DNA of 64,000 bases from Saccostrea cucullata (GCF_032062105.1 NW_026937656.1:1-64000); one strand, 5' to 3'; counted from the stretch's first letter, positions 21,646 through 26,920 are shown. The notes: generated by a model not told the origin, from the letters alone. Translations and numbers: made by a program.

Positions 21646-22131
21646 TGTAGTAATTTAGTTTAATTAGGAAAAAAATTGTTTTGTTTACATAATTCTTTAA
21701 CGGTCACTCATTGTTTATATAACTATTTTTAGATATAGCTACTCGATGCTCCTCGCGAGGATCGGTTAGTTTGACCTTTACGTAATTCTTTTGTTTTGAA
21801 CGCGATGCTCCTTATGAGCATCGGTCAGCAGGTATATATATGGGGGGGGGGGGATTTTGGGTCAGTTAGTTACTGTTTCGCTGGAAATTTATTAGTATAG
21901 TCACTGTTTTACTTGGGATTTATTTGTACATAGACCGTTCAGAAGATAGTGGATTATTGTGTAAATATTAATATTATGATGTGTTTTACGGGCACCTGTC
22001 CCTGTAAATAAATTGTGTGTAAAACTTACTAATCGTTTTATTTCAAACAAGGAGGAGATTTTAAGACCAAGGAATATTATTTTTACTGAATAATGGATTA
22101 ATTTAGCCGTTTACCGCTCGACGGCATTACA
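21646..22131 (+). repeat. 5' LTR of Gypsy-3 (486 bp)
   Basis: TGTAGT...ATTACA termini, TATA-like run at ~21833, AATAAA at ~22007, and PBS immediately downstream. There is no partner LTR to confirm the boundaries. Confidence 0.75.
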
Positions 22132-22133
22132 AC

Positions 22134-22150
22134 TGGTGGTAGCTGGGGGA
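22134..22150 (+). promoter_or_regulatory. Primer-binding site, tRNA-Leu-like
   Basis: TGGTGGTAGCTGGGGGA resembles the Leu PBS TGGTGGCAGCGGTGGGA. Confidence 0.7.
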
Positions 22151-22226
22151 TTTTCCGCATTTTTCCAGTGATTTTAATTTATTATTTTTGTGTGTGTGGA
22201 TTTATTCAGTTGAATTATTCGTGAAG

Positions 22227-22451
22227 ATGAGGAAATTTTCTTATATTACTTTGTATACTATTCAAAAGAACGGATCTGGATTTAGAAAGTCTATAGTGGA
22301 TACTGAAAATTACAATCTTACATGTGAAAATTGCGCTTAAGTATTTCCAAGGATACAGGCAAAGAACAAAATGTTTTTGTCTTGTGAAAATTGTGAGCTT
22401 TCCGTGTTCAAATTCAGATGCGTAAATTGTGATCATGTGAATAGCTCCTAG
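22227..22451 (+). pseudogene. Leader ORF A: small CxxC zinc-ribbon-like protein with one internal stop
   Basis: MRKFSYITLYTIQKNGSGFRKSIVDTENYNLTCENCA*VFPRIQAKNKMFLSCENCELSVFKFRCVNCDHVNSS*, containing three CxxC motifs. Confidence 0.6.
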
Positions 22452-22544
22452 TGTGCGGAGGAAAATTAGTATACAGTGACACTATTATTATTGTTACTAT
22501 TATTCACTATCATAGTGAATTATTGTGTTTTTAAAATACTAGAA

Positions 22545-22780
22545 ATGGATTCCAGGAATAATCAACCTCCAAGACTTGCATATATATATACGACTATGAT
22601 GATTCCGGAAAATTAGTTTTAGTGAGGATCGAGGATTTTAATTACGGAAGGAATGCCCAAACTGTTATAACATGTTTGTAAAAACGGAAAACAGGCATGA
22701 ACATCAAACCATGCAGTGGACGCGTTGTTCAGTTCTATAAATGCCCAGCTTGTAGATGCCGGATTAAAATACCTAATTAG
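22545..22780 (+). pseudogene. Leader ORF B: small CxxC zinc-ribbon-like protein, frameshifted
   Basis: MDSRNNQPPRLAYIY/DYDDSGKLVLVRIEDFNY/KECPNCYNMF/KRKTGMNIKPCSGRVVQFYKCPACRCRIKIPN*. Joining the segments needs small indels. Confidence 0.45.
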
Positions 22781-22856
22781 AGAAAGTTAGTGATTTATCA
22801 ACCTGGATCCGTTTGTTATATTTGTGTTATTTGCCCACTGTGCTCTTCTACTTAAA

Positions 22857-24076
22857 ATGTTTCAATCACCGACGAATATGGAATCACAAAGAATAATTCC
22901 AGAGCGTCCAGCCCCGTATTATACGCCTTATCCAAGGACAAGTGCGCGTAGAAATTTAATGAGTGAATTTAACAGGATGTCGCCATCTCCTGTGATATCA
23001 AGTACACCGCTTAATTGGAGTTCTAGTGGGAATGAGCGCGAAACGCCAAGCAGTGCGGAATCCGGAAGCTCCGATTCCAGTACTTGGGGTTCATATATAT
23101 CTTATTTTCTGCTTGGAGTGGTTTTATGCATGTTGACAATACTTGGAAGTTATAAACTCTTCCCTATGGATTACCTGAACAGTCTGACTCGTGGAGCGGG
23201 AGTCGTCGTTGGAATTGTGTTATTCATGTTTATTTGTGCAGTGTTGAGGAAATTGTTCAACAAAGGACGTGCCAGTTTCGAGAATGAGACATCTAACGAG
23301 CAGATGCCAGGAAGAGGATCAGGAGTTAGTATTCAAATCAAACGCACCTTTAAGGGCGAAGGGGCCGAGATATGGAGCGAGTTCATTCGATATTTCGAGA
23401 ATATCGCTATGCTTAATCATTGGACTTTAGATATGAAACGGCGAGTTCTTATTACTACGTTTAGAGGACAAGCGGAAACATTTGCCTACGGATTGCCAGA
23501 GGATATTGTAGAAGATTACAATCAACTGAAGCAAAGTATGGATGACAGGTTTGGTCATCATGCAATGAAGGAAAGTTACATCGCCGAGGCAAAACTGCGG
23601 AAAAAGAGGAATACTGAATCTTATAGAGATTTTGGACAAGCCATTGCTGATCTTTATAGGCGAGCACATCCAAACAACAGAGACTATGTAGAGGAAGCCA
23701 GCCTTAAGACATTCCTAGACAACTGTGATGGTAACGGAATTTCGCCTTGCTGTAAAGCGAATGAGACCAGATACGCTACAAGAAGCTGTGACCGCAGGAG
23801 GAATGCATTAGAGTAACAGAAAATAGAAGTTCTAGAAATATTCAGAATCGTATTGTTAGACCTGTCTACAGAGTTAATGACTCTGTGAAATTTGATGCTA
23901 AACCTCAGATACACCCCGCGCAAAACAGTGAAGTACAAAGTAATGAAGCTGCACGGAGAATAAAGAAATGTTACGAATGTAACTCAACACAACACTTGTA
24001 CAGAGACTGTCCTATGAAGAAAAATGTAAATGACAGAAGACTGCAAAAACCTTTAAACCTAAAAGTGTCGAGGTAG
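22857..24076 (+). pseudogene. gag: Gag of Gypsy-3 with two N-terminal hydrophobic helices, capsid domain and CCHC knuckle; frameshifted near 23735-23780
   Basis: Hydrophobic segments YISYFLLGVVLCMLTILGSY and GAGVVVGIVLFMFICAVL; capsid-like FKGEGAEIWSEFIRYFENIA...W; knuckle CYECNSTQHLYRDC. Confidence 0.85.
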
Positions 24077-24114
24077 TAGGCCATGCATCGGCACAGGAGT
24101 TTGTAAAGCGGCCT
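24052..24114 (+). promoter_or_regulatory. -1 frameshift signal (U UUA AAC plus pseudoknot) of Gypsy-3
   Basis: TTTAAAC in gag phase, 6-nt spacer, stem 1 GTGTCGA/TCGGCAC, stem 2 AGGCC/GGCCT. The -1 frame is open into the protease. Confidence 0.8.
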
Positions 24115-26920
24115 TGTATAGGTAACCAGCAACCCCGGGATACTGCGGACGTTGTTAGTAAGGGAAATGTTACTGTATCAACGCAGACTGTTGTTGCTGA
24201 GAATATGCACCTGAATTATGACTCTAAGGATGTTGAAACTGGGGACTTTGTAGAGATTCAAGGGAAGTCCGGTATGAAGTTAGATGGTTTAGTTGAGGGC
24301 ACGCCAGTAGAGTGGAAATTAGACACGGGTGCAATAAATACGTTCATTACAGAGGATACTTATCTTAGCATCCTTCCAGAACACCGACCTGTACTTGAGC
24401 GCGTTAAGAAAATATTCCATACAGCCGATGGCAGGAGGTTAAAGGTTATGGGAACAACGAAAATGTTACTCTCATTTAAAAGTTTTCAAGTGATTTTCCG
24501 TGTATTTGTTGGAGAAGTTAAGAGTAACTTATTAGGACAAGACTTTATCACCAGGTTTCAATGCCAGTGGAATTATACATCTAATCTGTGTACCCTAAAA
24601 TCACAAAATGAGGAAATTATGCGAGGTAATTTTGTACAATGCATCGAGGATAGTGTCGTTCCTGCTCATTGTGAAATTGTGATTAAAGCAGCGTTCGAGC
24701 GGAGTGCAAATGCTACTGACGGTTTTCTAGTTCCACTAAAAACTTTTGTGTTTAGTTATGGACTTGCTGTAGCGCGAGAATTAGTAACTGCGACTACTGG
24801 CCAGAATATCATATATGTGCGTGTTTTTAATCCAAAAGATCGTGATGTAATTGTGAGAAAGAATTCTGAAATAGCAGTGTTTGATCCTGTGGATGCGGTT
24901 TCAACTGTGAACATTCTGGAAGTGAGCAATGTGACGTCAGTGGATAGTCGACTGCCTGAATATCTAGAACCAATCTTCAATGATGCGTGTAAAAATATGA
25001 CAAAAGAGCAAAGTGTTAAGTTCAAGGACTTTATTTTGTCGCGTGTAGATGCATTTGCAGATCCTAGTAAACCCGTTGAACGTGCTACGATCGGATAGCA
25101 TCGCATTAAATTGAAGGAGGAAGTACCCTTCAAGGAACCAGTGCGCAGGGTTCCGATATTTAAGAGAGAAATTATGGACGAGGAGCTCCGGAAACTGGAA
25201 GAACAAGGGATAATTGAGAGATCTAATAGCCCGTGGTCCTCACCTCTTGTGTTAGTACAGAGAAAAGGACAAATCATGGAGATTGTGTGTCGATTATCGT
25301 CGACTTAATGCAGACACCATTAAGGACGCATACTCCATACCTCGAGTGGCAGATGATCTTGACTCTCTCGCTGGATCTACATGGTTTTCGTCACTTGATT
25401 TAAACATGGCATACCATCAAATTCCGATGCGTGAAGAAGACAAAGAGAAAACAGCGTTTGCTACACCTCGTGGAGGCCTTTATCAATACACAGTTATGCC
25501 CTTTGGATTATGTAATGCCCCGGCAACATTTCAACGAGTGATAGAACAGGCACTAACTGGATTGCAGTGGAAAATCGCAGTGCTTTACCTGGATGATATT
25601 ATTGTGTACAGTCGAAGTTTTGATGAACATCTTAACAATCTTAATTTAGGTTTTGACAGGCTACAGAGTGTGAATTTAAAACTAAAAGCTAAGAAGTGCA
25701 ATTTCTTTAGACGTGAGGTTAGTTTTCTGGGACATATTGTATCTGAGAGTGGTATTAAGACCGACCCATCAAAAATTGAAGCTGTAAGGAACTGGAAAAA
25801 GCCCGAAACTGTGTCAGAACTTCGAAGTTTCCTTGGATTAGCAGCTTTCTATCGACGATTCATACAAGATTTTGCTAAAATTGCCAGATGTTTGCACGTC
25901 CTGACTGGAAAGAATAGTGTGTGGAATTGGACCAGTGAGTGTGACATAGCCTTTCAAACTTTGAAAGAGAAACTTATTTCAGCTCCTATTCTAGGATACC
26001 CAGACCCAGATGGTGGAGACTTTGTGTTAGACACTGACGCTAGTAATAGTTCTATTGGTGCTGTGCTATCGCAAATACAAAATGGACGAGAAGTTGTCAT
26101 TTCATATGGAAGCCGTGTGTTGAATAATTCTGAGCAGAATTATTGTGTTACGCGTAAAGAAATGCTAGCAGTTGTGTATTTTGTTAGACATTACAAGCAT
26201 TTTCTTCTTGGTAGAGAGTTTTTACTCAGAACAGACCATGGATCGCTAGTATGGCTTCATAGATTTCGAGAACCCGATGGCCAAATTGCGCGTTGGCTAC
26301 AACAACTTGGACCTTACGTGTTCCGGATCGAACACCGGGCAGGAAAACGACATGGAAATGCAGATGCATTATCTCGTCTGCCGTGTGAATTAAACTGCAA
26401 ACAATGTAAACGCGAGAAAAATGACTACCATGGCAATGATATATTCTCACATGTAACAGAACTAAGGAATTATTCTGCAAATAATGACAAAGACTGTATG
26501 TTAGAACTTAACCTGTTATTTGATGAGAAAACGAATTATGTTCTTACTTCGGAATGTGCTGTTGTTTCGCCTACTCTAAAGTCGAGATGTAATAGACCTG
26601 CCAGAGCCAAAGCACGGAAGCAGCCCATGATATCTTTAAGCTATGAGAGCATTCGTGAGAATCAAGCAAAAGACAACGGAATGCAAATCATAAACCGATG
26701 GCTGGAAAATGATGAAAAACCGCCATTATCAGTAATATCTGGAGAAAATTCGGAGTGTAAATTCTGGTATTCGAGATGGGATTTATTGTGTATTGACCGT
26801 GGTGTGATGTGCATTCGTTGGATTCTAGACAACAAAGAAGAAATAAAGATATGCTTACCGCGAAACATGCGCCATGTTGTGTTGTGGCACATGCACGATT
26901 CTAAAGTAGCTGGACATATG
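24052..26920 (+). pseudogene. pol: pol of Gypsy-3 (PR, RT, RNase H, start of IN), disrupted
   Basis: KLDTGA, CVDYRRLN, YLDDII, DTDAS and RTDHGSL motifs. Stop at 25096-25098, frameshift near 25262, truncated at the IN zinc finger. Confidence 0.92.

What the first reader, a model, noticed from the sequence alone, without database searches (positions are those of the whole stretch)
21646..26920. Candidate new Gypsy lineage: [Zn ORF A][Zn ORF B][TM-Gag]-frameshift-[Pol]
Taken together, the element looks like a complex retroelement with accessory genes placed 5' of a membrane-anchored Gag. This implies unusual translation, such as leaky scanning, reinitiation or splicing. The 3' end is lost here, so an env-like gene cannot be excluded.
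Basis: inference. Interest (0 to 1): 0.75.

Follow-up and report, generated by a model that had tools for sequence, protein, structure and literature searches.

The report
Bivalve retrotransposons with membrane-anchored capsid protein
This is a broken copy of a recently active family of shellfish jumping genes whose capsid protein carries two membrane-spanning segments and which has extra small zinc-binding genes and no envelope gene, an unusual design that may tie particle assembly or spread to cell membranes.

Summary
The layout is real. The window copy (21646-26920) is decayed and cut inside integrase, but relatives in the same genome show LTR-[ORF A]-[ORF B]-[Gag with two hydrophobic helices]-(-1 frameshift)-[Pol]-[C2H2/acidic ORF]-LTR, with no env in 15 of 15 full-length copies. 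ORFs A and B are under purifying selection, are predicted zinc-ribbon proteins and look like paralogues. The three traits are nested, not one package: the two-helix Gag is oldest (also in a sister lineage without leader ORFs, and in Mytilus proteins), ORF B marks a larger clade, and ORF A only a subclade. Best reading: an env-less Gypsy clade whose Gag is an integral membrane protein with a cytosolic capsid, plus small regulatory proteins. Simple leaky scanning is unlikely; splicing is untested. My searches found no description, but Repbase and the MolGy clades could not be checked. New variant of a known kind.

The parts
21646..22131 (+). 5' LTR (TG...CA), inserted just after a LINE RT fragment (21274-21645)
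   Evidence: Matches both LTRs of L031/L032 at 94-97%; ends read; LINE RT fragment Pfam RVT_1 E 1.5e-11
22134..22151 (+). Primer-binding site for tRNA-Leu (slightly diverged in this copy)
   Evidence: Family PBS seen; its complement occurs 8 times in the genome and 3 of 3 loci scanned are tRNA-Leu (AAG/TAG) genes
22227..22451 (+). ORF A, 74 aa, three CxxC pairs, predicted all-beta zinc-ribbon protein; premature stop at 22338 in this copy
   Evidence: purifying selection; model pLDDT 75; profile similarity to ORF B, probability 74.5, E 2.7e-5
22545..22780 (+). ORF B, 76 aa, beta-hairpin plus CxxC...CxxC zinc ribbon; broken by frameshifts here
   Evidence: selection; model pLDDT 85; 37 similar small proteins among 45 hits in the 1.84-billion library
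22803..22856 (+). CUG-initiated, in-frame hydrophobic N-terminal extension of Gag (18 codons here, 18-30 in relatives), with a conserved His
   Evidence: CTG in 36 of 38 copies carrying the extension, A at -3 in 37 of 38; codon control 0 of 39; pN below pS in 10 of 10 pairs in the gag frame
22857..24079 (+). Gag: Ser/Pro/Thr-rich N-terminus, two-helix hydrophobic hairpin, linker, capsid core, CCHC knuckle (23969-24010); frame breaks around 23.74-23.80 kb
   Evidence: 71 of 78 homologues with over 110 aa before the capsid core have two hydrophobic helices
23097..23250 (+). Predicted transmembrane hairpin (helices about 23097-23153 and 23196-23250, usually 34 residues apart in relatives), basic residues after helix 2
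   Evidence: Kyte-Doolittle scans; mean net charge -0.3 before, +0.8 in the loop, +2.2 after helix 2 in 73 homologues
24052..24115 (+). -1 frameshift signal: slippery heptamer TTTAAAC (24052-24058) and H-type pseudoknot around the gag stop
   Evidence: Pol frame is -1; heptamer and both stems present in 11 of 11 families, with pair changes in the outer stem; stem 1 is in the MFE fold of 2 of 2 correctly oriented copies
24052..26920 (+). Pol: protease, RT, RNase H, start of integrase zinc-binding domain; stop near 25097, frame break near 25.26 kb, truncated at 26920
   Evidence: Pfam hits; full order PR-RT-RH-IN in L034; alignment end
26921..27470 (-). Unrelated repeat with a gag fragment that replaces the lost 3' part (rest of integrase, C2H2/acidic ORF, 3' LTR)
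   Evidence: Retrotrans_gag E 6e-4; 45 matches in the genome

Best explanation
A bivalve clade of env-less Ty3/Gypsy LTR retrotransposons with a complex, polycistronic genome. SHOWN (sequence level): tRNA-Leu priming, 4-bp target duplications, recent insertions, coding ORFs A and B, a two-helix hydrophobic hairpin fused in frame ahead of the capsid, a CUG-started longer Gag frame, a -1 frameshift signal into Pol, and a 3' C2H2/acidic ORF. INFERRED: Gag is inserted into the ER membrane as a hairpin with both its N-terminal region and its capsid in the cytosol; the CUG form adds a third anchor; particles assemble on, and may bud into, internal membranes, and the protease frees the capsid. Gag is reached by termination-reinitiation or internal initiation just after the ORF B stop rather than by scanning past the leader AUGs. 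ORFs A and B (A a later duplicate of B) and the 3' ORF are zinc-binding regulators that act on the element's RNA or DNA or on host silencing, in the manner of nuclear MDG1 sORF1 or Cer1 CERV. The membrane-anchor step is the better supported inference (about 0.65); the roles of A, B and the 3' ORF are weaker (about 0.35).
For: Open, selected frames across families. Two helices in 71 of 78 long Gag homologues, Mytilus proteins included, and none in the outgroup Gags of 12 elements. Positive charge after helix 2 in 55 of 73 homologues; N-glycosylation sequons absent from the N-terminal region in 31 of 73, so not conserved. CUG invariance against a 0 of 39 control. The Gag start lies 10-68 nt after the ORF B stop in 10 of 10 copies, with 10-23 upstream AUGs. 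Frameshift signal conserved in 11 of 11 families. No hydrophobic 3' ORF in 15 of 15. Same strand pattern in the A and B models plus profile similarity. Precedent for ER-targeted Gag: Ty1 (PMC3945221, passages) and MLV glyco-Gag (PMC3423011, passages).
Against: Membrane insertion rests on hydropathy only; no topology predictor or Gag model was run. The 71 of 78 count is biased upward because the search profile contained the helices. The CUG extension is missing in three families and deleted in two copies, so it is dispensable. pN in the hairpin is fairly high (0.30-0.49): hydrophobicity is kept more than sequence. A and B have no fold match above Z 5.0 and 2.9 and no Pfam hit at cut-off, so their function is a guess. 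RNA coverage was too low to exclude splicing. One RT-selected clade member (L094) had a decayed two-helix Gag but no ORF B hit.
Confidence: 0.55

Rival explanations
1. The hairpin is an env substitute: a Gag-fused membrane protein that drives budding and cell-to-cell transfer, as the separate transmembrane sORF2 does for MDG1-group elements.
For: No env; helix followed by a polybasic patch, as described for sORF2/FAST proteins (bioRxiv 10.1101/2025.03.14.642691, passages and section 10); same overall layout of two small ORFs before gag; a pol-less sister family keeps the two-helix Gag open in 6 of 6 copies.
Against: sORF2/FAST proteins are single-pass with a roughly 30-residue ectodomain and often a myristoylation motif; here a two-pass hairpin leaves only a short outside loop, and the Gag N-termini aligned do not start MG. 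No evidence of transfer outside bivalves in named hits.
Confidence: 0.2
2. Two-product glyco-Gag model: the CUG extension is a signal sequence that reverses topology and sends the capsid to the lumen or cell surface as an accessory anti-host protein, while the AUG form builds particles.
For: Invariant CUG in strong context, in frame and just upstream of the Gag AUG, followed by a hydrophobic run, the layout of MLV glyco-Gag. An A/T/V-H-C small-residue pattern suits a signal-peptidase site in some families (my reading).
Against: The cleavage pattern is not kept in the L051/L052/L063/L081 families; sequons are not conserved; the AUG form already has two helices, unlike MLV Pr65. In one 69-member protein cluster (P0005) the position of the Gag Met reads Ile, which suggests the CUG may be the main start there rather than an accessory one.
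Confidence: 0.15
3. Spliced-message model: subgenomic spliced RNAs express Gag without the leader ORFs, or without the hairpin, so translation is ordinary and the hairpin belongs to an accessory product, as with CERV of Cer1.
For: Leader AUGs are not depleted; Cer1 makes its accessory protein from a spliced RNA that shares the gag frame (PMC10309623, passages).
Against: No conserved AG acceptor before the CUG or AUG in the families printed; no conserved internal Met between hairpin and capsid; the hairpin is in frame with the capsid in every open copy and directly follows the PBS in the sister lineage; MDG1 elements with two leader ORFs are unspliced.
Confidence: 0.15
4. The hydrophobic stretches and small ORFs are by-products of a U-rich leader and of RNA structure, not functional proteins.
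For: U-rich DNA translates to hydrophobic residues; no Pfam family at cut-off for A or B.
Against: pN far below pS in frame, but not in the +2 frame, for the extension; 89 of 110 ORF B matches without stops; invariant Cys; confident models; helices kept in Mytilus Gags.
Confidence: 0.03

Closest known systems
412/MDG1 group of Drosophila Metaviridae (sORF1 + sORF2 upstream of gag; bioRxiv 10.1101/2025.03.14.642691, passages and section 10 read)
   Same: Env-less Gypsy element, two conserved small ORFs 5' of gag on the same strand, membrane-protein function encoded in the 5' part
   Different: There sORF1 is predicted helix-turn-helix and sORF2 is a separate single-pass membrane protein. Here both small ORFs are Cys-rich beta proteins without a hydrophobic helix, the membrane segment is a two-helix hairpin fused to Gag, and there is a 3' C2H2/acidic ORF. 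RT kinship was not testable.
Glyco-Gag of murine leukaemia virus (PMC3423011, passages read)
   Same: In-frame upstream CUG start that adds a hydrophobic N-terminal extension to Gag
   Different: A retrotransposon, not a gammaretrovirus; the extension is 18-30 residues, not 88; the AUG form is itself predicted to be membrane-anchored; glycosylation is untested
ER-targeted Gag of Ty1 (PMC3945221, passages read) and IAP (title seen in that paper's reference list; details recalled)
   Same: Gag is sent to the ER for particle assembly
   Different: Ty1 Gag has no discernible transmembrane domain (stated in the paper); neither is described there with a conserved two-helix hairpin or leader zinc ORFs
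Cer1 CERV of C. elegans (PMC10309623, passages read)
   Same: Gypsy-type element with a Cys-containing accessory protein
   Different: CERV is 517 aa, made from a spliced RNA that includes the 3' ORF; no sequence comparison was run and no similarity is claimed
MolGy clades of mollusc Gypsy elements (PMC6238403 and PMC8556966, passages read; two supplement look-ups)
   Same: Mollusc Gypsy elements outside the GyDB clades; this RT clade may well be one of them
   Different: They are defined by RT/RNase H trees; word searches of the texts found no 'ORF' in either and no 'transmembrane' in PMC8556966; no reference sequences were available to place this clade
Bdelloid LTR elements with captured ORF3, e.g. 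Vesta4 two-TM ORF3 (PMC5408684, passages read)
   Same: Env-less elements with extra ORFs, some with two transmembrane regions
   Different: The TM protein is a separate 3' ORF, not the Gag N-terminus

Membership tests
Ty3/Gypsy (Metaviridae) | Pol order PR-RT-RH-IN | tested here: met
   Pfam on L034 Pol; the window copy has PR, RT, RH and the start of IN
Ty3/Gypsy (Metaviridae) | LTRs TG...CA, PBS, polypurine tract, target-site duplication, Gag with CCHC | tested here: met
   A 4-bp duplication was recovered in 7 of the 15 clade rows; end trimming was crude, and L048, missed there, shows one
Env-carrying Gypsy (errantivirus-like) | env ORF with signal peptide and TM after pol | tested here: not met
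   Highest 19-residue hydropathy 0.1-1.1 in 3' ORFs of 15 of 15 full-length copies; the ORF is C2H2 plus acidic
412/MDG1 group | Two small ORFs upstream of gag | tested here: met
   True for the ORF A subclade only; most of the clade has one
412/MDG1 group | sORF2 is a separate single-pass TM protein | tested here: not met
   A and B are predicted all-beta zinc proteins
412/MDG1 group | RT clusters with 412/mdg1 | not testable with these tools
   No reference element was returned; a hit merely named after 412 (P0246) fell outside the clade
Gmr1 clade | Integrase upstream of RT | tested here: not met
   IN follows RH; definition from PMC8220671 passage
Mag lineage | No gag-pol frameshift | tested here: not met
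   Separate frames with a -1 signal; Mag trait from PMC5408684 passage
Troyka | CG...CG termini, 3-bp duplication | tested here: not met
   TG...CA and 4 bp; definition from PMC12440569 passages
MolGy1-16 / MolAn / Cigr-1 / CsRN1 | RT/RNase H tree position | not testable with these tools
   Supplements searched gave names and accessions, not sequences; one PDF and one PPTX were unreadable
Glyco-Gag-like product | In-frame upstream CUG with hydrophobic extension | tested here: met
   (sequence level only)
Glyco-Gag-like product | ER entry, glycosylation, surface display | not testable with these tools
   Needs bench work; sequons are not conserved

The most novel reading that the evidence does not exclude
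An env-less retroelement lineage of bivalves in which the capsid protein itself is a multi-pass membrane protein that provides budding and cell-to-cell, perhaps host-to-host, transfer, with an independently evolved CUG-started glyco-Gag analogue and a new family of zinc-ribbon accessory proteins: a third route to infectivity beside env capture and sORF2/FAST proteins.
Probability: 0.2. Interest if true: 0.85.

Novelty: new variant of a known kind. Interest (0 to 1): 0.62.

Why it matters
By my recall, Gypsy Gag proteins are taken to be soluble or only lipid-binding. A conserved two-helix membrane anchor fused to the capsid across bivalve lineages, with a CUG-started longer form like retroviral glyco-Gag, is a clear departure. 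It gives a specific, testable candidate for how env-less LTR elements of aquatic molluscs use membranes to assemble or move between cells. The nested gains (membrane Gag, then ORF B, then ORF A; a C2H2 domain fused to Pol in sister lineages but separate here) show a retroelement genome growing complex step by step. ORFs A and B are a small-protein family with no match at cut-off in Pfam and no clear solved fold.

Tried and rejected
Env at the 3' end: rejected. One lineage defined by all three traits: rejected. Leaky scanning to Gag: disfavoured. Fold searches for B (best Z 2.9, rmsd 4.0, 46 aligned; no viral-library match at E 0.001) and A (best Z 5.0, rmsd 2.7, 56 aligned; no PDB match at E 0.001) gave only generic zinc-ribbon or beta-sheet matches; this does not show a new fold. 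ESM Atlas: ORF B's nearest clusters (0.92-0.93) were small hypothetical or zinc-ribbon proteins, leads only; Gag gave only generic retrotransposon gag clusters under 0.9. Scans of metagenome, prokaryote-genome and viral contigs with the Gag profile found no relative, so leaders in other species could not be read as DNA. RNA: 20 of 24 listed runs hold part of the element. In the 4 runs laid, depth over the internal region was about 0-6 in the three raw-read runs, reads fell on both strands, and no splice joint was listed; this cannot test splicing, and DNA carry-over was not controlled. Whole-region folding z-scores for the pseudoknot region were not significant (-0.7, -1.6), and the third sequence was given in the wrong orientation and is discarded. 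The careful tree did not finish in two runs; supports are SH-aLRT from the quick tree, midpoint-rooted. Complex prediction for A with B was not available. Earlier scan notes: nothing found in three look-ups. Literature: 9 full-text searches returned no listing that describes this architecture; Repbase, GyDB and subscription journals were not searchable.
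Full report
Observation. 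The stretch 21646-26920 is the 5' two-thirds of an LTR element. The LTR runs 21646-22131 and a primer-binding site follows; its family form is complementary to tRNA-Leu genes of the same genome (8 matches; 3 of 3 scanned are tRNA-Leu). ORF A, ORF B, Gag and Pol are all present but each is broken in this copy. Similarity to full-length copies stops at 26920 in the integrase zinc-binding region, where a minus-strand gag fragment of another repeat takes over. The host is an animal genome of 1.17 Gb; a bivalve is inferred from the names of homologues.

Full-length relatives. A DNA search found copies at 97%, 95% and about 70% identity. I fetched 86 stretches of up to 10 kb around hits. Copies with both LTRs and no large internal insertion or deletion are 7.5-8.2 kb and read LTR, ORF A (some), ORF B, Gag, Pol, a roughly 260-aa 3' ORF, LTR. 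LTR pairs were 90-100% identical in the 15 clade rows, 14 of them at 95% or more, so insertion is recent. A 4-bp target duplication was recovered in 7 of those 15 rows with crude end trimming. The 3' ORF has two C2H2 fingers, an acidic middle and a conserved C-terminal block. No 3' ORF of 100 aa or more has a 19-residue hydropathy above 1.1 in 15 of 15 copies, so there is no env. In eight Pol relatives of the sister groups the same C2H2/acidic region is fused to the end of Pol.

ORFs A and B are genes. ORF B matches 110 places, 89 without a stop; ORF A matches 31. Synonymous sites are near or at saturation between families while pN stays at 0.17-0.34 for A and 0.09-0.45 for B. Of 48 fetched loci with both RT and ORF B, 46 have the Gag within 900 nt downstream; the other two are internally deleted or decayed. 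AlphaFold2 gives both the same strand order, an N-terminal hairpin followed by a zinc ribbon (pLDDT 85 for B and 75 for A). Profile comparison gives probability 74.5, E 2.7e-5: A is most simply a duplicate of B with one more CxxC pair. Neither reaches a Pfam cut-off or a clear fold match.

The Gag. Two hydrophobic helices, usually 34 residues apart, precede the capsid core. Of 116 homologues, 78 have over 110 residues before the core; 71 of these have two helices, 3 have one and 4 have none. The profile contained the helices, which biases this count, but Mytilus proteins that align only over the core also have them. None of the 12 outgroup elements with a Gag has such a stretch (a thirteenth lacks Gag). 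Net charge averages -0.3 before, +0.8 between and +2.2 after the helices in 73 homologues, which fits a cytosolic capsid by the positive-inside rule (established knowledge). The N-terminal region often carries an RRNL..F motif (40 of 73) or DSG (17 of 73). These recall cyclin-docking and beta-TrCP motifs (labels recalled, not tested) and would also place it in the cytosol. No topology predictor was run.

A CUG start. Upstream of the Gag AUG the frame stays open over a hydrophobic run with a conserved His. Of 81 loci examined, 38 carry it; 36 begin with CTG, one with GTG and one is a broken copy; 37 have A at -3 and 36 have G at +4 (the profile was built from 8 of these copies). As a control, 0 of 35 invariant Leu columns of Pol (7 families) and 0 of 4 of Gag (8 families) keep one codon, whereas the CTG is kept in all 8. 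The 17 codons after it show pN below pS in 10 of 10 pairs, and in none of 6 pairs in the +2 frame; the +1 frame is mixed. In-frame stops lie a few codons upstream in most families, so this is best read as a near-cognate start, like MLV glyco-Gag (PMC3423011, passages). It is absent in three families and deleted in two copies. A conserved RNA motif overlapping the codon cannot be excluded.

Translation. Pol is in the -1 frame. Eleven of 11 families have a slippery heptamer at a fixed distance before a stem-loop whose loop pairs with a downstream GGCCT, an H-type pseudoknot; the outer stem shows pair changes. Overall folding energy is not exceptional. AUGs between PBS and Gag number 10-23, close to chance, and the Gag start lies 10-68 nt after the ORF B stop (10 of 10 copies). 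That argues against scanning from the cap and for reinitiation or internal entry (inference). RNA runs hold the element, but coverage was low and fell on both strands with no splice joint, so splicing is untested.

Nested history. In a 58-row RT/RNase H tree of own-genome elements (quick IQ-TREE, SH-aLRT, midpoint root; rows under 250 aa and one distant row dropped), 13 outgroup rows lack all traits. L096 is sister to the rest (100) and has the two-helix Gag about 70 nt after the PBS with no leader ORF. A 44-row clade (93) has ORF B. An 18-row subclade (99), which holds the window copy, adds ORF A, partly deleted in some copies. Five rows of the 44, chosen by RT alone, had no ORF B hit: four lacked the 5' part in the stretch fetched, and one (L094) had a decayed Gag. 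Six more copies of the sister type had no A, B or CUG extension. With 87 database Pol proteins added, the membrane-Gag elements stay in one supported group (FastTree 96-99). Named members and named Gag hits are bivalve or bivalve-associated records. No reference elements were available, so clade names and horizontal transfer are open.

Comparison. It is a Ty3/Gypsy element. It fails the defining tests for env-carriers, Gmr1, Mag and Troyka. It works most like the MDG1 group in layout, like glyco-Gag in its CUG start, and like ER-targeted Gags in its inferred assembly site, but is none of these. The mollusc surveys classify by RT only (PMC6238403, PMC8556966, passages), so the clade may be catalogued while its architecture is not described. 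Other papers seen as passages only: PMC13524379, PMC8220671, PMC10294476, PMC12440569, PMC10309623, PMC2774666, PMC5408684.

Verdict. A real, conserved and recently mobile architecture; a new variant of a known kind. Anatomy is shown at sequence level, membrane anchoring is probable, and the roles of the small proteins are inferred. Interest 0.62.

Noticed in passing
L123-L128 (own genome; 61 matches to the L096 Gag N-terminus): Sister-lineage elements of about 3-3.5 kb: LTR, an open two-helix Gag of 489-535 aa without CCHC, LTR, and no pol, in 6 of 6 loci fetched; LTR pairs 96.6-99.7% identical. A mobile Gag-only family that keeps the membrane Gag.
   Followed up: partly
P0197, P0199, P0201, P0203, P0204, P0206, P0208, P0210: The C2H2/acidic 3' ORF is fused to the C-terminus of Pol in these relatives; P0198 carries a Macro domain annotation.
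   Followed up: partly
L104:6893-7549, L106:6728-7414, L108:6641-7315, L109:6975-8015, L110:6685-7755 (element orientation): Outgroup Gypsy elements also carry a 220-360 aa ORF after pol, several starting with Cys/His zinc-finger-like motifs, not matched by the clade's 3' ORF profile.
   Followed up: no
window 2824-12126: Another full-length Gypsy element with near-identical LTRs, a PNMA-like Gag (5495-6766) and an open 1484-aa Pol frame ending in acidic 8-residue repeats.
   Followed up: no
window 15656-19949, minus strand: A further LTR element with 101-bp terminal repeats at 99% identity and a broken gag-pol; Mag-like by my recall.
   Followed up: no
L040-L043 (G000:C10612, C12916): Copies of the sister family sit about 9.7 kb apart in duplicated segments next to minus-strand ORFs, and share a deletion of most of ORF A.
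   Followed up: no
L031:6951-8083: A 146-bp tandem repeat array inserted into the end of pol.
   Followed up: no
L032:400-470 and 8447-8500: The insertion site lies in a short, highly transcribed repeat; reads join the two flanks without the element, as expected for empty copies of that repeat.
   Followed up: no
window 35532-36718, 49464-52921, 53111-54059, 1266-2403: A 30-bp minisatellite, a large inverted-repeat structure of about 147-bp units, and 166-168-bp satellite arrays.
   Followed up: no
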